A DNA stretch of 64,000 nt from an uncultured bacterium (lineage in GTDB: Bacteria > Patescibacteriota > Minisyncoccia > Moranbacterales > UBA2206): contig CAIMIV010000012.1 in the NCBI GenBank assembly GCA_903841185.1, forward strand, positions 86-64,085, given 5' to 3'. The number at the start of each line of letters is the position of its first letter. Position 1 is the stretch's first letter. The notes beneath the pieces are model-generated. The model did not search any database, had not been told where the DNA came from, and was given only the letters and a program-made list of their open reading frames with translations. The translations under genes and the position numbers were made by a program. Shown piece after piece: positions 28,152 through 62,248 of the stretch.

Positions 28152-28307
28152 AGTTTTTCATCTGTCATTCCGACCTTGAGCCGGAATCCACACCAACTAG
28201 ATCCTGAATTAAATTCAGGATGACATTCTTTTTTAATTACATACTTAGTCTATAGCATTTTGCCTAAAAAATAAAGCTTAGCTCTATTGTGTAATAAGTT
28301 TTATGGC

Positions 28308-30227
28308 TTACGTGTTCGAATTTTTAGTTTCATCAATGAGGGCTCGCACACCGGCCAAATCCACGTTCGGTTTGGTTTTTTGCGGTTTGAATTTTTTCGG
28401 AGCGATGTGTGTCATTTGCGATAAACTCATTGATTTTCCCGGAATGGCATGACTGACTAGTTGTGGTTCGTTGGGAATCACTTTCTCCGCTACCGGTGCG
28501 ACTTGGATTGGATTCCTGGGAACATAGCTAGGGGGCGCCACTTGCTTTTCCGCCTCCACTTTTTTTCTGGCGACCATTCGTTGATGCTCTTTCAAACATT
28601 CTCGACAGAAGGCCGGACGAGCCGGGTCGGGTTTGAAAGGCACCGTGATGCTTTCTTCACACACCGAACAAACAGCGGAAAACATTTCTTTTGGAGCTTC
28701 ACTCTTTTTTTCTACCACGACTTCACTCCTAGTTTCTGACTGAGATACTATTTTTTTTGTCTCAAGAATAGTCGTCTCCCGAGGCAAGGTTCTCGTCACG
28801 CTTGGAACAACTGCTTTATTAAAAACATCCTGCTCTCGGATAATCTTATGTTCCACCGGCGCCGGCGCATCTTCCTGCAATTCCACATCATCCATATCAT
28901 CCGTCTCTTCCCTTCCGCCGGCCGGAGCTTCCTTGAACACTTCCATTCCGCTCCACCGCGCAATACGATCCTCCACTTCTGCTTTTGGCCTACCATATCT
29001 TTCTCGCGTGACTCGAATGATTGTTTCTTCGTTCCCGATAGTCTCTGTTAAATCCAGTGGCGGCAAAGTAGTGGCAGAAAAAGCATCCCCTGCCACGCCA
29101 TCAATCATTAGTTTCAAATAAATATTATATTTCGTCAGATTTACAATGTCATTCATCATAAAGACCGGTTCAAATTCCTTCTCCAAATGCTCGGCATCCT
29201 CCGCCCCCACGCGAAAAGACACAATGGTGCCCACATTGCCGAAAACCGCGTCCCGCACCGTAGCATTGCCGTCAAAAATTAATTGGTTGATATATTGATG
29301 CGCCAGAATCAAATTGAGGCGATATTTTCTGGCTTCCGAAAGAATATTGGCAAAAGATTCTGTGGCAAAATTTTGGAATTCATCTACGTATAAATAGAAA
29401 TCTTTTCTCTGCGCTTCCGGCATCGTCACCCGACCCATGGCCGCTAATTGAATTTTGGTGATAATCATGCCTCCCAACAGCCGCATAGAATCTTCTCCGA
29501 TCCTTCCTTTGCTCAAATTGATAATCAATATTTTTTGGTTGTCCATAATCTCAGTCATATCAATCGTTGATTTGGCTTGTCCGACAATGTGGCGAATGAC
29601 AGAAGAAGAGAGAAATTGCCCAACCTTGTTCTGAATAGCCGCCACCGCCTCTTTCCGAAACTTATCCTCCCACTTATCAAACTCATTCAACCAAAAAGCT
29701 TTCACCACCGGATCTTTGATTTTTGGATACACCCGCTTGCGATAGTCCTTGTCATTCATCATGCGGTTCACGCCCAGCATGGTGGATCCGGGATAATCCA
29801 AAAGAGCCAGAATAGTATTATTCAAAATATATTCCATCCTGGCACTCCACACATCCGGCCAGATTTTTTTGAACACCCCCATCATGCCTGACGCCACTAG
29901 ATTTTTTTTGTCATCCGCCACTGACTCCAAAATATTGAAAGCCAAAGGAAATTCCGCATCCGACGGATTGAAATAGACTACGTCATTTACCCGATTGGCC
30001 GGAACCGCTTGCAACATTTTTTCCGCAAACTCACCATGAGGATCCACCACACACACGCCTTCACCATTGCGAATATCCTGGATGGCCATGTTTTCCAACA
30101 GATTAGATTTTCCCATACCGGTTTTTCCGATGACATACATATGTCTGGTGCGGTCATCCCTCTTGATTCCAAAAACTCTTTCCTGATTTCTAAAATTAGT
30201 TTTGGCAAAAAAATTTATCTCTGGCAT
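28308..30227 (-). CDS. P-loop NTPase of the FtsK/HerA/TraG-like (AAA_10/DUF87-type) kind, with C-terminal CxxC...CxxC zinc ribbon
   Basis: Walker A 'GKTGMGKS' near the N-terminus and Walker B 'LYVDEFQ'. C-terminal 'CSVCEES...FCRECLKEH'. Confidence 0.55.
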   Translation of the reverse strand: MPEINFFAKTNFRNQERVFGIKRDDRTRHMYVIGKTGMGKSNLLENMAIQDIRNGEGVCVVDPHGEFAEKMLQAVPANRVNDVVYFNPSDAEFPLAFNILESVADDKKNLVASGMMGVFKKIWPDVWSARMEYILNNTILALLDYPGSTMLGVNRMMNDKDYRKRVYPKIKDPVVKAFWLNEFDKWEDKFRKEAVAAIQNKVGQFLSSSVIRHIVGQAKSTIDMTEIMDNQKILIINLSKGRIGEDSMRLLGGMIITKIQLAAMGRVTMPEAQRKDFYLYVDEFQNFATESFANILSEARKYRLNLILAHQYINQLIFDGNATVRDAVFGNVGTIVSFRVGAEDAEHLEKEFEPVFMMNDIVNLTKYNIYLKLMIDGVAGDAFSATTLPPLDLTETIGNEETIIRVTRERYGRPKAEVEDRIARWSGMEVFKEAPAGGREETDDMDDVELQEDAPAPVEHKIIREQDVFNKAVVPSVTRTLPRETTILETKKIVSQSETRSEVVVEKKSEAPKEMFSAVCSVCEESITVPFKPDPARPAFCRECLKEHQRMVARKKVEAEKQVAPPSYVPRNPIQVAPVAEKVIPNEPQLVSHAIPGKSMSLSQMTHIAPKKFKPQKTKPNVDLAGVRALIDETKNSNT

Positions 30228-30279
30228 ACTGTTATTTTTTTAAATACTTACTCTTTTTTTAAATTATAAAATATAAACT

Positions 30280-31518
30280 CTATTCAATAGGCAAATTGAA
30301 TGGCGGCGTGCCTTTTTTCGATTCTACTCTCGGCACGGCTGGCGTGATAACCCCCATATCCGGAAAATGATAGATGGTAGCAAATTCCGTAGTAGAAAGA
30401 GCCACAGTATTTCCATCCGTGTTACGCTTACGATAGCGGTTAAACAATCTTCTTTTCATCGTTTGCGCTCTGGCATCCGTCGCAATGAAATGAGCGGTGG
30501 TCTTTGTATTATCAGGGCGAAGATTGTTGGAGTTCAAATCATTGAATTGGCGCAATACTCCGAAAAAAATAGTTGGCAAAGCTCCATCAAAATTTTCTCG
30601 CTTTCCCACACTTAAAAATCTCATCTTGACCTTATAGAAATTCTTGCTTAGATTCGTCTCCAAACCTTTCAACGTTTCACTCTCCATGGGAGTAAGACGA
30701 AAAGCCAAAGGTTGATCACTTTTTTTGGCCGTAGTGGCAAATTCCACCGGTCCCCACAAGCCTGCAAAAATATTACTGAGCACATCCAGAAAATCATCCA
30801 ATATAGTTCTTTTATCCCCAGTGTCCCGCCCCGCCAACTTCTGCACCTGTTTCATCTGTTCCTTTCGCCAGGTCTCAGGCAAAGGAGAGACAACCATCTG
30901 CCACAGCAAATTTTGTCCCGGAGAAATAGACGCAAAGAGTTCCAGAAAACCGGCCATCGGGTCAACCATGGTACCGGTGATGTCTTCCTCAAACTTATCA
31001 TAGGTGCGGATGGGGAAAGGGTCAGGCTGTGACAAGATAATATCCGATCCCCAAGCATCCCAATCTTTATTAGGTATCACCAGAGGAAACTTCTTGATAT
31101 AATCATCCACCTCAAAAACTTCCGCCCCCGGATATTGGGCATACACCTGACTCTCCACTAATGTCTTCAGTTTTTTCTGCACTCGGATGTAATAATGAAT
31201 TTCTCCACCCAGACTCACCAGTTCAAAGCTAAACTTGTCTGTATATTTCCCTTGTAACCATTCCTCGAAACAATTGAAAGTCACCACCACACCGCTCAGG
31301 GCCATAAAAATCACTTCCATAGGCTTAGGACCACGCTCCAGTTCGTTTGGTGGGATAACCTCCAACATAGTCCATTCCAAGCTGTTTGCCCAAGTATCCT
31401 TTATAAAGTCCGCCCAGGCTACTTTGAAAAGATAATAAAAAGCCACCGGCAAGATAATCCACCACAATTGGGAGAAAGGTTGCCAGAGGCTTTTTAATAT
31501 TTCGATATAAGTATTCAT
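30280..31518 (-). CDS. Hypothetical membrane-anchored protein, co-oriented with the upstream NTPase
   Basis: N-terminal TM helix (LWWIILPVAFYYLF). 412 aa. A 50-nt gap separates it from the NTPase gene. Confidence 0.45.
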   Translation of the reverse strand: MNTYIEILKSLWQPFSQLWWIILPVAFYYLFKVAWADFIKDTWANSLEWTMLEVIPPNELERGPKPMEVIFMALSGVVVTFNCFEEWLQGKYTDKFSFELVSLGGEIHYYIRVQKKLKTLVESQVYAQYPGAEVFEVDDYIKKFPLVIPNKDWDAWGSDIILSQPDPFPIRTYDKFEEDITGTMVDPMAGFLELFASISPGQNLLWQMVVSPLPETWRKEQMKQVQKLAGRDTGDKRTILDDFLDVLSNIFAGLWGPVEFATTAKKSDQPLAFRLTPMESETLKGLETNLSKNFYKVKMRFLSVGKRENFDGALPTIFFGVLRQFNDLNSNNLRPDNTKTTAHFIATDARAQTMKRRLFNRYRKRNTDGNTVALSTTEFATIYHFPDMGVITPAVPRVESKKGTPPFNLPIE

Positions 31519-31580
31519 TTTATTTTAAATATTTGTCGTTGCAAATTTACTCTTTTTGTTTGGATGGGATGGTGCTAAAT

Positions 31581-32639
31581 TTATTTCTTAAGCCCATATC
31601 TATTATCCTGTTTCACGAATTCTTTTTTATTATTCAAATTTATCATCACCGTGGTTTTTTTTACTTGTCTGGATTTAGCAATTTCTTCCAGCAACTCTTC
31701 TTTTGTCATCGCGTGGCCGCTCTTTTCCAATATTCTCTTGATCACCTCTTTGATTGTTCCCGGCACATAACCCCATTCCCGCAACGCATACGTTCCTCTG
31801 CCGATAAGCACAAAACGATCATCTTTTATCAGCTCGTTATGCACTGTTTGGATATGTGATTTTCTTTTGCCGATTCCAAAGGCATCAATGGATTTGGTAA
31901 TTTCCGTAAAATGCAAGGGCTTCTTTTCTTCCTTCAAAATAAGGTAGATTCTTTCTCTGGTTCCTTTGGGATTTATTTCCATCCAATGAGAAAACCCCCA
32001 TTTGCCAAATTTATTTTCGGATATTTCATTCAGAACATCCAAGAAACTGAGAATCTTATTTTTTGTCATTTCCGGATGAGCCTTGGTTATCTTCTCTACA
32101 ACCTCAGTGTCACTAAGTGGCACTTTGCTGAGAGAAAAAACATCTTTGGCTATCTTGGAAAAATTTTCTACTTCTCCTAGAATATCTCTTGAGACTGCCC
32201 ATGATTTTCTCAATAATTCCTTATTTTTAATTTCCATTATTCTATTCGAACAAAGAGCAAAAAAAGCAATAGCTCTTTCCTCCTTCAGATTTCCTGCAGC
32301 CAATTTTTCCAATAAATACTCTTCACTTATTATACCATCTCTTTTGGATATTTCCAAAATAATTTTTTCTTCCGCCAATTTGAAAACCTCCGCATCAGCC
32401 ATCTTGGAAACCTTTTTGATGGAATCGGAAATTATTTGCCGGACGCGTTCGCGCGTTATCTGATAGTCGCTGCCTATTTTTTCCAGTGTTTCTAGCTCTC
32501 CACTGGCCAAGCCATATCTTTTTTTCAAGATTTCTTGTGAACGCTGCGGCAAATGAGTCAAGATCGCATTCGCCAACCCTAAGAAAGTCTGTTTGACCTG
32601 CTTAGAGATTTTTTTAGTTGTCATGTTTGCTTTTTCCAT
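31581..32639 (-). CDS. Sigma-70 region-4-like HTH domain protein with C-terminal extension
   Basis: 'LPQRSQEILKKRYGL...LEKIGSDYQITRERVRQIISDSIKKV' matches the sigma-70 region 4.2 consensus. Confidence 0.5.
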   Translation of the reverse strand: MEKANMTTKKISKQVKQTFLGLANAILTHLPQRSQEILKKRYGLASGELETLEKIGSDYQITRERVRQIISDSIKKVSKMADAEVFKLAEEKIILEISKRDGIISEEYLLEKLAAGNLKEERAIAFFALCSNRIMEIKNKELLRKSWAVSRDILGEVENFSKIAKDVFSLSKVPLSDTEVVEKITKAHPEMTKNKILSFLDVLNEISENKFGKWGFSHWMEINPKGTRERIYLILKEEKKPLHFTEITKSIDAFGIGKRKSHIQTVHNELIKDDRFVLIGRGTYALREWGYVPGTIKEVIKRILEKSGHAMTKEELLEEIAKSRQVKKTTVMINLNNKKEFVKQDNRYGLKK

Positions 32640-32808
32640 ATGTAAATACTTAATTTTTTACTTCAAGCCATATTATCACATAATGGATATATTTGTCAAG
32701 GGCTTGTGGATTCTTGTCAAAATTATTCTTAAACTGCCTACTTTTTCGTCCTAATTGACTAACTAAAAAATCCCCTTTCGGGGATTTCACTTGTGCGCCC
32801 ACCAGGAC

Positions 32809-32950
32809 ATCTCACTCGCTTCGCTCTCAATAGGGCTTCCCTGCCTACCGGCAGGCAGGCGCCCTCTTGCCCTCCTCATTCTTCGTCGGTCACCCCCAAC
32901 GGGCACCTCCCGGTTCCCGACCCCTCCCCTGTCCTCGTCCTGGCGGGCCA
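32809..32950 (-). other. Anomalously GC-rich (~70%) 140-nt non-coding segment closed by a CCAGGAC/GTCCTGG helix and ending in a copy of the tRNA-Lys 3' end
   Basis: Composition contrasts sharply with the ~40% GC surroundings. Contains a CCTGCC-GGTA-GGCAGG hairpin. Flanked on both sides by near-identical AAATCCC(C)-GNNA-(G)GGGATTTTTT terminator-like hairpins at 32765-32787 and 32954-32974. Confidence 0.4.
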
Positions 32951-32982
32951 AGCAAAAAATCCCTCGCGGGATTTATATAATG

Positions 32983-33055
32983 TGCGCCCACCAGGACTCG
33001 AACCTGGGACCGTTTGCTTAAAAGGCAACTGCTCTACCAACTGAGCTATGAGCGC
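32983..33055 (-). tRNA. tRNA-Lys (anticodon TTT)
   Basis: Cloverleaf folded by hand. Acceptor GCGCTCA/TGGGCGC, D-arm GCTC-AGTTGGTA-GAGC, anticodon loop CTTTTAA, T-arm CCAGG-TTCGAGT-CCTGG. No encoded CCA. Confidence 0.8.
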
Positions 33056-33061
33056 ATTAAT

Positions 33062-33316
33062 TCAATTTTTAATAAAACTTTTTATAAATTCCCTGCCTCT
33101 AAAACTCTTTAATTCCTTCTCTCTTTTCACAACGTCTGCTCTTGTTGCAAATTCTTCTTTATAAATCAGCTCCCAATTTCCATAATTCTTACTCGTAAAC
33201 GAAGTGCTTTTATTTTTAAGCAATCCATTATGCCTTTGTAATCTTACTTCTAAATCAGCAGTTTGTCCAATATATATTTTATTCGATTGATTCCTAATTG
33301 CGTATACGTAAAACAT
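33062..33316 (-). CDS. Free-standing GIY-YIG nuclease domain protein (84 aa)
   Basis: 'FYVYAIRNQSNKIYIGQTADLEVRLQRHN' contains the GIY...YIG core and the conserved Arg and Glu (UPF0213/Slx1-like mini-endonuclease). Confidence 0.75.
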   Translation of the reverse strand: MFYVYAIRNQSNKIYIGQTADLEVRLQRHNGLLKNKSTSFTSKNYGNWELIYKEEFATRADVVKREKELKSFRGREFIKSFIKN

Positions 33317-33325
33317 ATTATTATA

Positions 33326-33386
33326 CCTGGGACCGTTTGCTTAAAAGTCCGCCAGCTGGCGGATCTACCAACTGAGCTATGAGCGC
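33326..33386 (-). pseudogene. Degenerate partial copy of tRNA-Lys (5' two-thirds) with a 16-bp perfect palindrome replacing the D/anticodon junction
   Basis: Matches the intact tRNA-Lys and its leader over 'GCGCTCATAGCTCAGTTGGTAGA' and 'CTTTTAAGCAAACGGTCCCAGG'. TCCGCCAGCTGGCGGA is inserted. The T-loop and 3' acceptor strand are missing, and the GIY-YIG ATG lies 9 nt after CCAGG. Confidence 0.55.
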
Positions 33387-33474
33387 ATTAATTCAATTTT
33401 TTGCAAAAAACAAAATCAGTTATAAGTTAATAACTTTTATTAGTATATCACTTCTACAATTTCCGTCAATGTTT

Positions 33475-33975
33475 TTAGCGATTAAGTTTTTTATGGATGA
33501 AAACCAGAAAAGCCAAAGGGATGACCATCCAAAAAAATCGGGCATTTTCTGAGGTCAAATACTCCATAGCGGTGGGAGAAATGAACCCTAGGGCAATCTT
33601 TTTTGGAACAATCACTAAAACTATACTGAGCAGGAGAATAACTTCCATAAAACTCATCACGAAAACTCGCCACAAGAAACCGGAGCCCGCACCGGAGATA
33701 TAAACCTCAAAAAGCTTTTTATCAATCAAGGTCAGAACGACCACGAGCGCTAAGAAAAAAACTAATTTATATAGATACTCCGTGAAGAATTGCGCCGGCA
33801 CCACCGTCGTCACAGCAAAGGCCACATACATATTGATGAGAATGGTCACCAATTTATAGCGCCCGATAAACATGCCAAAGATGAAACTAAACACCGTGAT
33901 CACAAGCAAGAGCGAAATGTCTTGTGTCAAAGCCGGTGAAACTCCTAATTTTGACAATAAAAATCCGATGTCCAT
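33475..33975 (-). CDS. Polytopic membrane protein (hypothetical)
   Basis: 166 aa with 4-5 hydrophobic helices. Sits next to the SPFH gene, so it may be an NfeD-like partner, but no OB-fold is evident. Confidence 0.45.
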   Translation of the reverse strand: MDIGFLLSKLGVSPALTQDISLLLVITVFSFIFGMFIGRYKLVTILINMYVAFAVTTVVPAQFFTEYLYKLVFFLALVVVLTLIDKKLFEVYISGAGSGFLWRVFVMSFMEVILLLSIVLVIVPKKIALGFISPTAMEYLTSENARFFWMVIPLAFLVFIHKKLNR

Positions 33976-33996
33976 AGAAACAACTTTTTAGCTTAT

Positions 33997-34842
33997 TTAG
34001 ATTTTTTCCTTAGTAAGAAAAGCTTGGATATCATTGACCGTGCCCATAAATTGCGCCGGGAAAATTATGGTGGAATTTTTTTCCACACTGATCTCCGCCA
34101 TAGTCTGCAAATTACGCAATTGCAAGGCAATGGGATGCGCCGCCATGATATCCGCAGTTTCTGCCAATTTCTGACTAGCCAAAAATTCTCCTTCGGCCGC
34201 AATCACTTTGGCTCGTTTCTCTCTTTCTGCTTCAGCTTGTTTCGCCATAGCGCGCTGCATATTCTCCGGCAATTCGATGTCCTTGATTTCCACCACTGAA
34301 ACAATCACGCCCCATGGTTCAGTGCGCTCATCCAACACCGCCCGAATTTCTTTGTTGATTTCATCTCTTTCTGAAAGCACCTCATCCAATTGAAAGCGTC
34401 CGACAATGTTACGCACTGTGGTTTGGGCAATTTGATTGATGGCGCTCATCACATTTTCAATGGCGACGATACTCTTTTGGGCATCTACTATTTGATAATA
34501 CGCCACCGCGGAAATGTCCACCGACACATTATCCTTAGTAATAATTTTTTGCGCCGGAATCGGCAAAGTGATGGTGCGAAAATCAACGTTGCGCATGCGG
34601 TCGATATACGGAACAATCCAATTCAATCCCGGTTCGCGACTGGAAATTATTTTTCCAAAACGAAACACCACTCCCACTTCATACTGTTGAACAATCCGAA
34701 AGCCGGGCAAAATAAAAAACATAAAGACGATCACTAGCAACGGGAATAGGCCTGCGATAAGTTCCATAATTTTTTTCTTTAAACTATTATTAGACCTGTT
34801 GCTTAATAGGTTGCGTAACGAAATTTTCAGATTTTGCGGCAT
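33997..34842 (-). CDS. SPFH/band-7 (stomatin-like) protein
   Basis: TM anchor plus 'QQYEVGVVFRFGK' and a long helical 'AEREKRAKVIAAEGE' region typical of stomatin/prohibitin. Confidence 0.8.
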   Translation of the reverse strand: MPQNLKISLRNLLSNRSNNSLKKKIMELIAGLFPLLVIVFMFFILPGFRIVQQYEVGVVFRFGKIISSREPGLNWIVPYIDRMRNVDFRTITLPIPAQKIITKDNVSVDISAVAYYQIVDAQKSIVAIENVMSAINQIAQTTVRNIVGRFQLDEVLSERDEINKEIRAVLDERTEPWGVIVSVVEIKDIELPENMQRAMAKQAEAEREKRAKVIAAEGEFLASQKLAETADIMAAHPIALQLRNLQTMAEISVEKNSTIIFPAQFMGTVNDIQAFLTKEKI

Positions 34843-35092
34843 AATTTTTCAAATAATTTTTGCGGTTTAGCCGTAGCTAAGCCAAGAAAATTTTTGGAAA
34901 ATTTGACCAAAATATGGAAATTGCAGTAGTGAGTTATTATGCAATAGGTCTATTATTTTCAATTATAAGACTATTACCAAAAATAAACAAGCCCGCTTCA
35001 CATTTATTTTTTTGTATTGGATGCCATTCGTCTTTTTTAATTGCTAAATCAATTCATGAATTTCCACCAAACCCATCCCTCTTGATAGCACA

Positions 35093-43592: not shown

Positions 43593-43739
43593 CAGTTAAG
43601 GGTTAGTTGGAACGGCCAAGGCGTCCTGCCTGCCGGTAGGCAGGGATTTAGCCGATTCGTCGATTTTCAATTTCCAGTGAATGTAACAGGTATAGGATAT
43701 GAAAGCGCAGCGTCCCCTCGCGTATGACACAGGCAGGAA

Positions 43740-60374: not shown

Positions 60375-61162
60375 GCTACTCTCCTCGCTTGTTGGGATTA
60401 GTGTTTTTTGACTCTTAATTACTAGTAAGAACACATTGCAACTACTTTTTAGTGCAATGTATCATTATAGCAATAAGGCTAAGAAAAGTCAATACCCTGT
60501 ATAAGGTGCACACGCCTTAGACGCTTTCTATATCCATACAACCTGATGCATATGTTTTATAGCAATAAAAAGCGCGCCCCGCTGGAGTTTTCAATCAATA
60601 GATTAATGCAACACCAGTACCATGCTGAAACGGCCAAATCATATTTTAGCCGTTAAAAAATAAACCCCCCTTCCATTCATTTTTTAATCCCGGGTACTTG
60701 GGATAATTTTTAAGCAAAAACCCTCCCCTATTCAAAGTTCAGCCTTAAAGTCTGAATATGCGGATTTCAAATTCAAAGTTACAGTGCGTCCGCCTCGGAT
60801 CGACAAGTAATTGTCTTCACGAGTCGAGACGGGCCATTTTCTTTGGCAGCAAAGAAAGTGGCAAAAAGAAACTGCTGCCCAGGCTCCCTCCATAGGCGGG
60901 CACGGCGTGCTGTCTAAATTTCTATCCGCCAGCTGGCGGATCAAATTCCCATAAATGCTAAAAGGATTGTTGGTAGGAAATTTCTTAACGCACACAAGTT
61001 TCAATTTGTAGCTTGATATTCCGCTAGTGCGGGAACTTTTTAAAAGTCGAGACGGGAGAAATGCACTTCGCTGTGGGCGAGAAAACGTTTTTTTAAAACT
61101 TTCATCTTGTGTATTCCTTTGTCATATCAACAGAAATAATATAGTCCTTGGCTAAAACTTTT

Positions 61163-61184
61163 CCATCGCCAAATTTGGCGATGG
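61163..61184. terminator. Perfect palindrome CCATCGCCAAA/TTTGGCGATGG 3' of the second RhuM gene
   Basis: See 53820-53841. Confidence 0.5.
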
Positions 61185-61189
61185 ATTAT

Positions 61190-62248
61190 TTATTCTTTTT
61201 TCTTCTTCACTTCTAAAATATTCTTCACCTCCCGATCAAAATCGGAAACATAGTTCCTATCCTGTTCTTTCCTAAACTTTTCATATTCTTCCAACGCCAA
61301 CGCTTCAGCCACTTCATGACTGATTTTCCCGGCATTACCCAATATTTGTCGCTCATTGAATTTTAGGAATGCATCCAGCTTTCCTACCCAATCTTTCATC
61401 CGCATTAGAACGCCACGAGTTGCTTGTATTTCTGCATAATCAAGATACATTGTTACGATCCTATTTAGATGATCAAGTTCTTTTTCGTTCAGATAATTTT
61501 TTGCAATCATTACATCAGTTTCCCGAATGGCACCTTTTGGAGAATTTTTCCAAACCGTCAATCCCATATTAGCCTTAGTACTATCAACTCTTCCGTGGAC
61601 TATCTCTGCGGCAGTTTTGCCAGTAATCGCAAAATGAAGCTTGTTCTGGACTGTTGCAAAAAATTTCTTAGTAATTTCTTCATTTGGATCATAGTCAGCG
61701 CTGCATTGGGCATAAATATCGGTGACTTTCTGATACATCCGTCTTTCGCTGGAACGGATATTTCTGATTCTTGCCAATTGCTCTTCAAAATAATCCTTAC
61801 CAGGAAAACTATTCGGGTCTCTAAGCCGCTCGTCATCCATTGTGAAACCTTTAATGATATATTCTCTCAATCTTTCAGTTGCCCAAATGCGAAATTGTGT
61901 CGCCTGCACTGAATTCACCCTATATCCGACAGAAATAATAGCGTCAAGGTTATAAAATTTTACCGACTGAGTTTGTGTTTTCCCCTCCAGGGCACCATGT
62001 TCTGTGGTATGTTCCAAAATGGAACTAACCACTTCTTCATCTAATTCTCCACTTTCAAAGATATTTTTCAAATGCTTGGTAATCGCTGGCCTCTGCACGC
62101 CAAACAAGAGGGCGATTTTATCTTGAGTCAACCAGATATTCTCATCACGCAAAAATATCTCTACTTTCACCTTGCCGTTTGGTGTGGTGTAGAGTAAAAA
62201 TTTCGTAAAACTGTTATTAGAAACTGCTTTTTGACTATTTTTTTTCAT
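61190..62248 (-). CDS. RhuM-family protein (paralog)
   Basis: 'FLLYTTPNGKVKVEIFLRDENIWLTQDKIALLF…YNLDAIISVGYRVNSVQATQFRIWATE'. Confidence 0.75.
   Translation of the reverse strand: MKKNSQKAVSNNSFTKFLLYTTPNGKVKVEIFLRDENIWLTQDKIALLFGVQRPAITKHLKNIFESGELDEEVVSSILEHTTEHGALEGKTQTQSVKFYNLDAIISVGYRVNSVQATQFRIWATERLREYIIKGFTMDDERLRDPNSFPGKDYFEEQLARIRNIRSSERRMYQKVTDIYAQCSADYDPNEEITKKFFATVQNKLHFAITGKTAAEIVHGRVDSTKANMGLTVWKNSPKGAIRETDVMIAKNYLNEKELDHLNRIVTMYLDYAEIQATRGVLMRMKDWVGKLDAFLKFNERQILGNAGKISHEVAEALALEEYEKFRKEQDRNYVSDFDREVKNILEVKKKKE

What the first reader, a model, noticed from the sequence alone, without database searches (positions are those of the whole stretch)
32790..33400. tRNA-Lys(TTT) locus invaded by a free-standing GIY-YIG endonuclease gene, with a partial tRNA duplicate carrying a 16-bp palindrome
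Reading the minus strand, the order is: degenerate 5' two-thirds of tRNA-Lys, identical 15-nt leader included (33326-33386); 9 nt (TATAATAAT); ATG of an 84-aa GIY-YIG protein (33062-33316); 6 nt; intact tRNA-Lys (32983-33055). In the pseudo-copy, the D-stem/anticodon-stem junction is replaced by the perfect palindrome TCCGCCAGCTGGCGGA, and the T-loop and 3' half are replaced by the endonuclease ORF. The same palindrome occurs once more at 60924-60941. This looks like a homing-endonuclease-type insertion with target duplication at a tRNA gene. The TATAAT box directly before the ATG suggests a leaderless or very short-leader transcript.
Basis: seen in the sequence. Interest (0 to 1): 0.75.

Follow-up and report, generated by a model that had tools for sequence, protein, structure and literature searches.

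The report
Mini-nuclease cassette inside tRNA-Lys locus
A tiny nuclease gene has been inserted between a tRNA-Lys gene and its promoter, next to a disabled partial tRNA copy that carries a 16-base hairpin. The same three-part module sits at tRNA-Lys or tRNA-Asn genes in at least about 70 other ultra-small (Patescibacteria) bacterial species and appears to be undescribed.

Summary
Minus-strand order: promoter; tRNA-Lys nt 1-23; palindrome TCCGCCAGCTGGCGGA (PAL); tRNA nt 32-54; 84-aa GIY-YIG ORF; intact tRNA-Lys(UUU); terminator; 140-nt GC-rich element; 17-nt copy of the tRNA 3' end; second terminator. Orthologous empty sites exist (L146, L149, L152), so this is an insertion.

The pseudo-copy is not random decay. 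Among 80 related loci, 70 have the ORF abutting an intact, same-strand tRNA-Lys(UUU/CUU) or tRNA-Asn(GUU), and most exceptions are contig ends or undetected tRNAs. 77 of 79 carry PAL. Its stem is nearly invariant while the proteins fall to about 50% identity.

The protein is a bare catalytic domain. Its closest relatives are UPF0213/SLX1 structure-specific nucleases. Catalytic Tyr/Arg/Glu are conserved and dN/dS is mostly 0.07-0.19. It has no DNA-binding domain, and an intact target persists beside it, so classical site-specific homing is only partly supported. The "leaderless TATAAT" idea is not supported.

Best reading (confidence 0.5): a recombination-driven, tRNA-restoring selfish nuclease cassette capped by a cognate hairpin. 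I found no description in the searchable literature.

The parts
33442..33469 (-). Sigma-70-type promoter TTGACG-16-TATACT, preceded by TG. It is the resident tRNA-Lys promoter and now drives pseudo-copy, ORF and tRNA.
   Evidence: scan (10 of 12 matches). The same promoter and leader are conserved in the empty-site orthologues L146, L149 and L152.
33364..33401 (-). 15-nt leader plus the left arm of the pseudo-tRNA-Lys (tRNA nt 1-23). It is identical to the intact copy.
   Evidence: repeat D1; exact run of 15 nt upstream plus 23 nt.
33348..33363 (.). PAL, the 16-nt perfect palindrome TCCGCCAGCTGGCGGA (6-bp GC stem, 4-nt loop). It replaces tRNA nt 24-31 (GCAGTTGC).
   Evidence: Hairpin energy is -10.2 kcal/mol as RNA and -5.9 as DNA. 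Present in 77 of 79 related loci.
33325..33347 (-). Right arm of the pseudo-tRNA (tRNA nt 32-54: anticodon loop to the 5' strand of the T stem), followed by the 8-nt spacer ATAATAAT.
   Evidence: repeat D3, 23 nt, 100%.
33062..33316 (-). 84-aa stand-alone GIY-YIG nuclease domain of the UPF0213/SLX1-like branch.
   Evidence: dN/dS is 0.07-0.08 against L008 and L009.
32983..33055 (-). Intact tRNA-Lys(UUU), 6 nt after the ORF stop codon.
   Evidence: ARAGORN; RF00005, 70.5 bits.
32950..32974 (-). Intrinsic terminator 1 (AAATCCCGCGAGGGATTT plus a T tract). It lies inside the second insertion.
32809..32949 (-). GC-rich (up to 71%) element. Its 5' end (GCCCGCCAGGAC) pairs over 12 bp with the following tRNA 3' fragment. 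It contains a second palindrome type, PAL2, at 32840-32859.
   Evidence: fold z=-3.96; homologue in L153. PAL2.
32792..32808 (-). 17-nt exact duplicate of the tRNA 3' end (GTCCTGGTGGGCGCACA).
   Evidence: repeat D4, spacing 189 nt.
32765..32787 (-). Terminator 2 (AAATCCCCGAAAGGGGATTTTTT). This is the ancestral tRNA-Lys terminator.
   Evidence: Read. The core CCGAAAGGGGATTTTT is identical to the terminator of the empty-site orthologue L146.
60925..60940 (.). Solo copy of PAL in a 750-nt non-coding gap. No tRNA-like sequence or GIY-YIG remnant lies nearby.

Best explanation
This is one member of a Patescibacteria-wide family of small selfish cassettes that live inside tRNA-Lys and tRNA-Asn transcription units.

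Each cassette has three parts:
- an approximately 85-aa SLX1/UPF0213-type GIY-YIG nuclease gene with no promoter of its own;
- at one end, a tRNA segment that rebuilds a working tRNA gene;
- at the other end, a conserved 16-nt GC hairpin (PAL) that caps and disables the left-over tRNA fragment.

Shown:
- The cassette is an insertion relative to orthologous empty sites.
- It sits between the resident promoter and the tRNA.
- The ORF is intact, keeps its catalytic residues and is under purifying selection.
- PAL travels with the ORF across the phylum.
- Exactly one PAL-free tRNA copy is kept in every locus.

Inferred:
- The nuclease makes breaks at structured or PAL-containing tRNA-gene DNA. This would be structure- or hairpin-directed rather than recognition of a long sequence.
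- Repair by homologous recombination between tRNA copies then copies or integrates the cassette into tRNA genes, possibly after DNA uptake.
- PAL marks the non-restoring cassette end. It is probably the nuclease's cognate site. It also splits the tRNA homology into pieces of 24 nt or less, which slows loop-out.
- Recombination between the remaining 23-nt repeats occasionally deletes the cassette. That would regenerate empty sites or leave ORF-less remnants.
For: Insertion:
- L146, L149 and L152 share the upstream 166-aa gene (51-69% identity), promoter and leader, but have an uninterrupted tRNA-Lys.
- None of the 11 metagenome contigs that match the 56-nt 3' part (nt 18-73) of this tRNA exactly encodes the ORF.

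Family-wide module:
- 299 tblastn-confirmed relatives were found among species-representative genomes, and 80 were examined.
- In 70 of the 80, the ORF abuts or overlaps a same-strand intact tRNA: Lys-UUU 28, Lys-CUU 19, Asn-GUU 23.
- Most of the rest are contig ends, intron-bearing tRNA-Asn genes or a tRNA-Lys that ARAGORN missed.
- Nine loci have the mirror layout: intact tRNA, ORF, then the PAL-bearing copy.
- PAL is present in 77 of 79 loci. The stem TCCGCC/GGCGGA is almost invariant. The rare stem changes are compensatory: CCCGCC..GGCGGG and TTCGCC..GGCGAA.
- PAL lies at nt 24-31 in Lys pseudo-copies (about 62 of 112 PALs) but in the D-loop in Asn pseudo-copies. Extra PALs occur in the T arm and variable region, and one sits inside another PAL's loop.
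- No locus has two intact copies of the target tRNA.

Nuclease:
- Y5, Y15, G17, H29 and E66 are invariant and R25 is 90% or more conserved.
- The AlphaFold model has mean pLDDT 93.
- The best PDB matches are UPF0213 proteins and SLX1.
- dN/dS is 0.07-0.19 in 8 of the 9 pairs that could be scored (0.39 in the closest pair, L024/L038). dS is about 1.3 between the window and L008 or L009.

Ongoing recombination or re-creation of the pseudo-copy:
- The pseudo-copy's left arm is 96% identical to the local intact tRNA, and identical in most loci, although the tRNA sequences differ between loci.
- Tandem arrays of pseudo-units and of whole cassettes occur.

Mobility:
- Asn-linked proteins form one clade, and host classes are intermixed in the tree.
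- In L008/L009 and L074/L086 only the cassette aligns between loci whose flanks differ.
- An identical block running from PAL to the distal tRNA 3' end occurs with a different downstream flank in L005.
- ORF-less remnants exist in L144 and L147.
Against: - No cleavage specificity is known for this protein or for any UPF0213 protein. Nuclease action on tRNA-gene DNA or on PAL is inference.
- If the tRNA gene itself is the target, the adjacent intact copy is not immune.
- If PAL is the target, it is unclear how cutting the donor helps the cassette spread.
- Strong purifying selection and saturated dS between species also fit a vertically inherited, host-useful gene.
- Filled versus empty sites can arise by deletion alone.
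- The protein tree rests on 85 residues and is poorly resolved.
- No relatives were found in viral contigs, so no vector is identified.
- How PAL gets into new positions is unexplained.
Confidence: 0.5

Rival explanations
1. Classical free-standing homing endonuclease. The protein would recognise a long sequence in the uninterrupted tRNA-Lys gene, cut it, and be copied in by double-strand-break repair. PAL would be a scar or polymorphism that makes the pseudo-copy uncuttable.
For: - Empty orthologous sites exist.
- The GIY-YIG catalytic residues are intact.
- There are weak hits to homing-endonuclease profiles: TIGR01453 at 31 bits, and PHROG and PADLOC 'homing endonuclease' models.
- The Asn-specific clade suggests heritable target choice.
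- Every redundant copy carries PAL at the same Lys site, as an immunity patch would.
- Precedent: T4 SegB sits in a tRNA gene cluster (PMC2330249).
Against: - The protein is only 84 aa and has no DNA-binding module. TIGR01453 scores below its cut-off of 56, and only over the catalytic core.
- The nearest relatives are UPF0213/SLX1.
- An intact tRNA whose 56-nt 3' part, including nt 24-31, is identical to the empty-site tRNAs remains 6 nt from the gene, so the host allele is not immune.
- PAL also occurs in the D-loop, the T arm, the variable region and another PAL's loop. One recognition site does not explain that.
- PAL has one conserved sequence unrelated to the tRNA, so it is not a local repair scar.
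Confidence: 0.15
2. A host-beneficial, vertically inherited small nuclease that is co-transcribed with tRNA-Lys or tRNA-Asn, for example an RNA- or DNA-processing factor. The pseudo-tRNA plus PAL would be an RNA leader or trailer element (stability or regulation), and absence in relatives would reflect loss.
For: - dN/dS is mostly 0.07-0.19 with saturated dS.
- All 80 ORFs are intact.
- The ORF is obligatorily co-transcribed from the tRNA promoter.
- In many loci the stop codon lies inside the tRNA's first 10 nt. RNase P processing, which cuts at the tRNA 5' end, would then remove the stop codon, coupling ORF expression to tRNA processing (inference).
- Prokaryotic Slx1-like domains fused to the tRNA methyltransferase TrmH have been taken to hint at RNA roles (PMC1564403).
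- PAL is a very stable RNA hairpin.
Against: - The PAL-to-ATG distance varies from 11 to 73 nt, and in nine loci PAL lies after the ORF. That argues against a fixed translational operator.
- Extra PALs in ORF-less tandem pseudo-copies and in T arms have no obvious RNA role.
- The distribution is patchy. Close relatives with the same synteny lack the gene, as do all 11 contigs that match nt 18-73 of this tRNA exactly.
- Host classes are intermixed in the protein tree.
Confidence: 0.15
3. PAL and PAL2 are autonomous-looking miniature GC-rich palindromic insertions, comparable to mitochondrial GC clusters or REP-like hairpins. They would accumulate wherever insertion is tolerated, which includes dead tRNA copies. 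The GIY-YIG gene would be merely a neighbour, or their mobilising nuclease, and the tRNA duplication would come from ordinary unequal recombination.
For: - PAL occurs once elsewhere in the window with no tRNA or ORF nearby.
- PAL2 occurs at 43625-43644 and in many other loci away from the ORF.
- Pseudo-copies collect several different GC-rich hairpins (L014, L016, L024, L046, L061, L144).
- Nested PAL-in-PAL looks like insertion.
- L147 has a pseudo-copy carrying a degenerate PAL-like sequence plus PAL2, with no ORF.
Against: - PAL is more than 100-fold enriched within about 400 nt of the ORF. About 110 copies lie near 80 ORFs, against 3 in roughly 260 kb of other sequence.
- PAL is present in 77 of 79 loci, at a clade-specific position.
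- A 16-nt unit has no known way to move by itself.
- The stem is conserved at sequence level rather than by covariation, which implies a specific partner.
Confidence: 0.15

Closest known systems
Free-standing GIY-YIG homing endonucleases of T4-like phages (SegB in the tRNA gene cluster; PMC2330249)
   Same: - GIY-YIG catalytic core.
- The gene sits among or next to tRNA genes.
- Presence/absence polymorphism at the locus.
- Presumed spread by break repair with co-conversion of flanking DNA.
   Different: - Seg and I-TevI enzymes are about 200-250 aa and have DNA-binding domains. This protein is 84 aa and is closer to UPF0213/SLX1.
- It is chromosomal in Patescibacteria, not phage-borne.
- It duplicates its target.
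- It carries a conserved hairpin.
- An intact target stays adjacent to the gene.
UPF0213 proteins (BH0048, EF2693; YhbQ-like) and the SLX1 nuclease domain
   Same: - Best sequence match (E=7.6e-9) and best structure matches.
- Same size class: a domain-only protein.
- Same conserved Tyr/Arg/Glu set.
   Different: - To my knowledge (not tested here), UPF0213 proteins have no tRNA linkage, flanking repeats or cognate hairpin, and their function is unknown.
- SLX1 works with SLX4 on branched DNA.
Integrative elements that insert into tRNA genes and carry a tRNA 3' segment to rebuild the gene (tyrosine-integrase islands and phages)
   Same: - The insertion preserves a working tRNA through a duplicated tRNA segment.
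- The 17-nt 3'-end repeat around the GC-rich element looks like an attL/attR core.
   Different: - There is no integrase.
- The cassette is about 330 bp.
- The rebuilt part is usually the tRNA 5' segment.
- The left-over copy is capped by PAL.
REP/RAYT (REPIN) systems and IS200/IS605 hairpin-dependent elements
   Same: A single-copy nuclease or transposase gene is flanked by conserved GC-rich hairpins that look like its cognate sites.
   Different: - Those systems use HUH Y1 transposases, and their hairpins are dispersed genome-wide.
- Here the enzyme is GIY-YIG and the hairpins cluster in tRNA pseudo-copies.
GC-rich palindromes in AT-rich organelle genomes (yeast mitochondrial GC clusters; Neurospora PstI palindromes flanking tRNA genes). 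Recalled from background knowledge, not tested here.
   Same: Short GC-rich palindromes occur in an AT-rich genome, near tRNA genes, and look mobile.
   Different: - Different sequences and a different host domain.
- No linked mini-nuclease module has been described for them.
Group I introns in Patescibacteria tRNA genes (PMC13011429)
   Same: - Same phylum, and tRNA-Asn is also a target.
- In L073 and L077 an interrupted tRNA-Asn, probably carrying such an intron, follows this ORF.
   Different: - Those are self-splicing introns in the anticodon loop, mostly without endonuclease genes.
- Here there is no intron: Rfam finds none, the ORF lies outside the functional tRNA, and the disrupted copy is not restored.

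Membership tests
GIY-YIG nuclease superfamily (PF01541) | Profile match above the curated cut-off | tested here: met
   61.2 bits against a cut-off of 22.6, E=1.2e-16, residues 1-71.
GIY-YIG nuclease superfamily (PF01541) | Conserved GIY Tyr, YIG Tyr/Gly, catalytic Arg and Glu | tested here: met
   Y5, Y15, G17, H29 and E66 are invariant and R25 is 90% or more conserved in 56 sequences.
GIY-YIG nuclease superfamily (PF01541) | Beta-beta-alpha-beta-alpha core fold | tested here: met
   AlphaFold2 model, pLDDT 93, elements E2-8, E14-19, H22-29, E49-56, H59-69. Foldseek top hits are SLX1, UPF0213 and HIGLE.
GIY-YIG nuclease superfamily (PF01541) | Nuclease activity | not testable with these tools
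   Needs biochemistry.
UPF0213 / SLX1-like branch | Closest solved relatives belong to this branch, and the protein is domain-only | tested here: met
   1zg2 E=7.6e-9; 1ywl 2.1e-8; SLX1 about 1e-5; I-TevI 1.5e-5 over the N-terminal 33 residues only. Length is 84 aa.
Homing endonuclease (free-standing GIY-YIG type) | Extra DNA-binding domain giving long-site specificity | tested here: not met
   84 aa, all of it catalytic core. TIGR01453 scores 31 bits, below its cut-off of 56, matching profile positions 4-73 of 215.
Homing endonuclease (free-standing GIY-YIG type) | Presence/absence polymorphism at an otherwise conserved site | tested here: met
   Empty orthologous sites L146, L149 and L152. 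0 of 11 contigs matching nt 18-73 of the tRNA exactly carry the ORF.
Homing endonuclease (free-standing GIY-YIG type) | The endonuclease-bearing allele lacks a cleavable target (immunity) | tested here: not met
   The intact tRNA-Lys beside the ORF matches the empty-site tRNAs exactly over nt 18-73, including nt 24-31, which PAL replaces. The true target is unknown, so this holds only if the target lies in that part of the tRNA.
Homing endonuclease (free-standing GIY-YIG type) | Site-specific cleavage of the empty allele | not testable with these tools
   Needs an in vitro cleavage assay.
tRNA (RF00005) | Covariance-model match or cloverleaf | tested here: met
   The intact copy at 32983-33055 scores 70.5 bits. 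The pseudo-copy gives no hit even at E<=10.
Group I intron in a tRNA gene | Intron ribozyme between tRNA halves | tested here: not met
   No Rfam intron hit in 31000-35000 at E<=10. The ORF lies outside the functional tRNA.
tRNA-targeting integrative element | Integrase gene plus attL/attR repeats of the tRNA 3' end | tested here: not met
   A 17-nt tRNA 3'-end repeat exists, but its copies are 189 nt apart and no integrase ORF lies between them.
REP/RAYT or IS200/IS605 | HUH (Y1) transposase | tested here: not met
   The only ORF is a GIY-YIG domain.

The most novel reading that the evidence does not exclude
The mini GIY-YIG nuclease and its 16-nt hairpin would together form a new class of mobile element. 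A structure-specific (SLX1-like) nuclease would use or insert a cognate hairpin to break and rewrite tRNA-gene copies. That would make PAL the smallest mobile DNA unit known. The cassette would be a 'tRNA-restoring' parasite that spreads through the universally conserved tRNA sequence among naturally competent ultra-small bacteria.
Probability: 0.25. Interest if true: 0.9.

Novelty: new variant of a known kind. Interest (0 to 1): 0.72.

Why it matters
- **A function for an orphan family.** Stand-alone UPF0213/SLX1-like GIY-YIG proteins are a very large family with no known function: 3,157 clusters at 50% identity match this profile at E<=1e-10. A strict, phylum-wide genomic link to tRNA-Lys/Asn genes and to one conserved hairpin gives the first concrete, testable substrate hypothesis for them.
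- **A different way to parasitise an essential gene.** The cassette rebuilds the target by duplication and disables the spare copy with a hairpin. It does not use an intron or an integrase.
- **Annotation and assembly.** Many contigs break at these repeats, and PAL-bearing pseudo-tRNAs are not called as tRNAs.
- **A possible tool.** The cassette might serve as a natural insertion vehicle in Patescibacteria, which are hard to manipulate genetically.

Tried and rejected
- **Known RNA families.** An Rfam scan of 31-35 kb at E<=10 and of the whole window at gathering thresholds found only the tRNA and a 16S rRNA. No intron, riboswitch or known sRNA matches the pseudo-copy, PAL or the GC-rich element. 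The region around the second PAL gave nothing credible either.
- **Leaderless transcript from the TATAAT before the ATG.** Rejected. The box is not conserved in L007 or L008, it lies 3 nt from the ATG, and it is not called by the promoter scan.
- **PAL as an intrinsic terminator.** Only the Lys-UUU context supplies a short U run. In the Asn context PAL is followed by GGTAGAGC, and the scan does not call a terminator there.
- **PAL templated from the local D-loop.** PAL's right half resembles CAGTTGGTAGA at 8 of 11 positions. However, the PAL loop variants do not track the local D-loop sequence. I treat the resemblance as unproven.
- **Phage link.** All 55 PAL hits in viral contigs lack tRNA flanks. 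No protein relatives and no GC-rich core were found in viral contigs.
- **GIY-YIG remnant or tRNA-like sequence at the second PAL.** None found.
- **Strain variation at the locus.** L001-L004 are identical to the window.
- **Structure of the GC-rich element.** Covariation analysis is uninformative with only two sequences.
- **Literature.** Six full-text searches found no description of this module.
Full report
**1. Observation**

The window has 40% GC. The protein hits and record titles place it in Patescibacteria, near Moranbacteria.

Read on the minus strand, the region holds the following, in order:
- a sigma-70-type promoter, TTGACG-16-TATACT, at 33469-33442;
- a 15-nt leader plus tRNA-Lys nt 1-23 at 33401-33364;
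- the perfect palindrome TCCGCCAGCTGGCGGA (PAL) at 33363-33348, in place of tRNA nt 24-31 (GCAGTTGC);
- tRNA nt 32-54 at 33347-33325;
- an 8-nt spacer;
- an 84-aa ORF at 33316-33062;
- 6 nt;
- an intact tRNA-Lys(UUU) at 33055-32983.

The ORF is a GIY-YIG domain (PF01541, E=1.2e-16). Infernal scores the intact tRNA at 70.5 bits and does not see the pseudo-copy. PAL occurs once more, at 60925-60940. Two copies compare with 0.02 expected.

- a terminator;
- a 140-nt element of up to 71% GC;
- an exact 17-nt copy of the tRNA 3' end at 32808-32792;
- a second terminator.

**2. It is an insertion**

I scanned metagenome contigs for nt 18-73 of this exact tRNA, a 56-nt pattern, and found 11 contigs. 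None encodes the protein.

Most of these contigs carry the same 166-aa membrane-protein gene next to the tRNA (48-69% identity). In L146, L149 and L152 the end of that gene, the promoter and the leader align with the window, and then run straight into an uninterrupted tRNA-Lys.

L146's terminator matches the window's second terminator. Compared with the empty allele, the window therefore carries two insertions:
- a 331-bp nuclease cassette, flanked by repeats of leader plus tRNA 5' part;
- a 189-bp block (terminator plus GC-rich element), flanked by the 17-nt repeat of the tRNA 3' end.

L007, whose 166-aa protein is 73% identical, is filled like the window. L147 and L151 are orthologous to the filled locus L008 (SerRS gene upstream). 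They lack the ORF but keep a downstream pseudo-copy with hairpins. L144 keeps an upstream pseudo-copy with hairpins and no ORF.

**3. The module is conserved, not decayed**

L007 and L008 encode proteins 82% and 80% identical to the window's. They show the same layout and the identical palindrome, in different gene neighbourhoods.

A profile search of one genome per species found 299 relatives. I examined the best 80.
- In 70 of them the ORF abuts or overlaps an intact tRNA on the same strand: Lys-UUU 28, Lys-CUU 19, Asn-GUU 23.
- Most of the remaining loci are contigs that end right after the ORF, tRNA-Asn genes interrupted by what looks like a group I intron, or a tRNA-Lys that ARAGORN missed.
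- Nine loci are mirror images: intact tRNA, then the ORF, then a PAL-bearing copy that keeps the whole 3' half. In these the ORF stop codon is the TAG of GGTAGA.
- No locus has two intact copies of the target tRNA.

Most record titles name Patescibacteria lineages. Some carry other automatic labels, which I did not verify.

**4. PAL**

- 77 of 79 loci have at least one PAL. It usually lies 11-50 nt before the ATG or 2-14 nt after the stop codon.
- The stem TCCGCC/GGCGGA is almost invariant, while the proteins diverge to about 50% identity.
- The loop varies: AGCT 59, AGCC 19, AACT 17, GGCT 9.
- The few stem changes are mostly paired: CCCGCC..GGCGGG and TTCGCC..GGCGAA.
- Position depends on the cassette clade. 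In Lys cassettes PAL replaces GCAGNNGC, about 62 of 112 PALs. In Asn cassettes it sits in the D-loop and replaces 3 nt, or it replaces the whole D arm.
- Additional PALs occur in the T arm and variable region of near-full-length spare copies. L062 has a PAL inside a PAL loop.
- PAL is rare elsewhere. I count 3 copies in roughly 260 kb of other sequence, against about 110 near the 80 ORFs.
- A second palindrome type, PAL2 (CCTGCCTGCCGGYAGGCAGG), also lands in pseudo-copies and in intergenic DNA.

**5. The protein**

- The family alignment keeps Y5, Y15, G17, H29 and E66 invariant, and R25 in 90% or more of sequences.
- The model is confident (pLDDT 93).
- The nearest solved proteins are UPF0213 BH0048 and EF2693, SLX1 and At-HIGLE. 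I-TevI matches only over its first 33 residues.
- The group I intron endonuclease model scores below its cut-off.
- The protein has no DNA-binding domain.
- dN/dS is 0.07-0.19 in 8 of the 9 pairs that could be scored, and 0.39 in the closest pair. dS is about 1.3 between the window and L008 or L009. The gene is therefore old and maintained.
- The wider family is large: 3,157 clusters at E<=1e-10.

**6. Dynamics**

- The pseudo-copy's left arm starts at tRNA +1 in most loci. It is 96% identical to the local tRNA, and identical in most loci, although the tRNAs differ between loci. This non-functional fragment is therefore being re-created or homogenised.
- Tandem arrays of pseudo-units (L015, L048, L066) and of whole cassettes (L049) show recombination among the repeats.
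- Asn-linked proteins form one clade. Lys-UUU and Lys-CUU cassettes, the two layouts and the host classes are all intermixed in the tree.
- In L008/L009 and L074/L086 only the cassette aligns between loci.
- L005 and L006 start inside PAL. They match the window exactly through the ORF and the tRNA, and L005 then leaves into a different flank right after the distal tRNA 3' repeat.

**7. Interpretation**

The best fit is a tRNA-restoring selfish cassette. It rides the tRNA promoter and moves or persists by recombination between tRNA copies. PAL caps its non-restoring end and is the likely cognate site of the nuclease.

The insertion, the conservation of the module, the selection on the ORF and the promoter capture are shown. 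Nuclease targeting, the recombination route and the role of PAL are inferred.

Classical sequence-specific homing is weakened by two facts: the protein has no DNA-binding domain, and an intact target persists beside the gene. A purely host-beneficial reading is weakened by the patchy distribution and by ORF-less PAL arrays. A reading in which the hairpins are independent of the gene is weakened by the more than 100-fold enrichment of PAL next to the ORF.

**8. Novelty**

Six full-text searches found no description of this module. The nearest reports are T4 SegB in a tRNA cluster (PMC2330249) and group I introns in Patescibacteria tRNA genes (PMC13011429).

Noticed in passing
window 32809-32949 (-), with 32792-32808: A GC-rich element of about 140 nt follows the tRNA and its terminator and ends in a 17-nt copy of the tRNA 3' end. 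Its 5' end (GCCCGCCAGGAC) can pair over 12 bp with that copy, and the fold z-score is -3.96. L153 has a homologous element at the same place (84% over 82 nt, 87.5% over 40 nt) but no GIY-YIG gene. There is no Rfam match, so its nature is unknown.
   Followed up: partly
window 32840-32859 and 43625-43644; also L007, L014, L016, L046, L056, L061, L147: A second GC-rich palindrome family, PAL2 (CCTGCCTGCCGGYAGGCAGG), occurs twice in the window, with 0 expected. One copy lies in the GC-rich element and one in an intergenic gap. PAL2 also recurs in other Patescibacteria loci, often inside tRNA pseudo-copies or inside PAL.
   Followed up: partly
window 60925-60940 (gap 60435-61190): A solo PAL lies in a 750-nt non-coding stretch between a 218-aa and a 352-aa ORF (neither was annotated). 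No tRNA-like sequence, GIY-YIG remnant or credible Rfam hit is nearby. The motif GTCGAGACGGG is repeated in the same gap.
   Followed up: partly
L005 1-591, L006 1-557 (= window 33358-32784): Two short contigs from other samples begin at PAL position 6 and match the window exactly through the ORF and tRNA. They carry 2 SNPs in the GC-rich element. L005 then diverges into an L153-like flank right after the distal tRNA 3' repeat. In two other loci, scaffold gaps also have edges inside PAL (both edges in L019, the resuming edge in L017). This could mark the boundary of a mobile block, a physical DNA end, or an assembler artefact at a palindrome.
   Followed up: partly
L073 ~1040-1250; L077 ~1770-1980: The tRNA-Asn that follows the GIY-YIG ORF is interrupted after the anticodon region by a long structured insert. 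This fits the group I introns reported at position 35/36 in Patescibacteria tRNA-Asn. L073's insert contains a PAL-like sequence.
   Followed up: no
L015 1790-2074; L048 1-210; L066 1775-1905; L049 1501-2060: There are tandem arrays of 70-84-nt PAL-bearing pseudo-tRNA units. L049 has a tandem duplication of the whole pseudo-copy-plus-ORF cassette. Many contigs end at these repeats.
   Followed up: partly
window ~28300-32639 (-); L001 and L002 3668-6255: The genes downstream of the tRNA locus encode a Sigma70_r4/HARE-HTH protein, a DUF8128 protein and a TrwB/DUF87-type ATPase. The first two differ in length between otherwise near-identical strains L001 and L002 (352 vs 317 aa; 412 vs 390 aa). 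This may be a variable island next to the tRNA gene.
   Followed up: no
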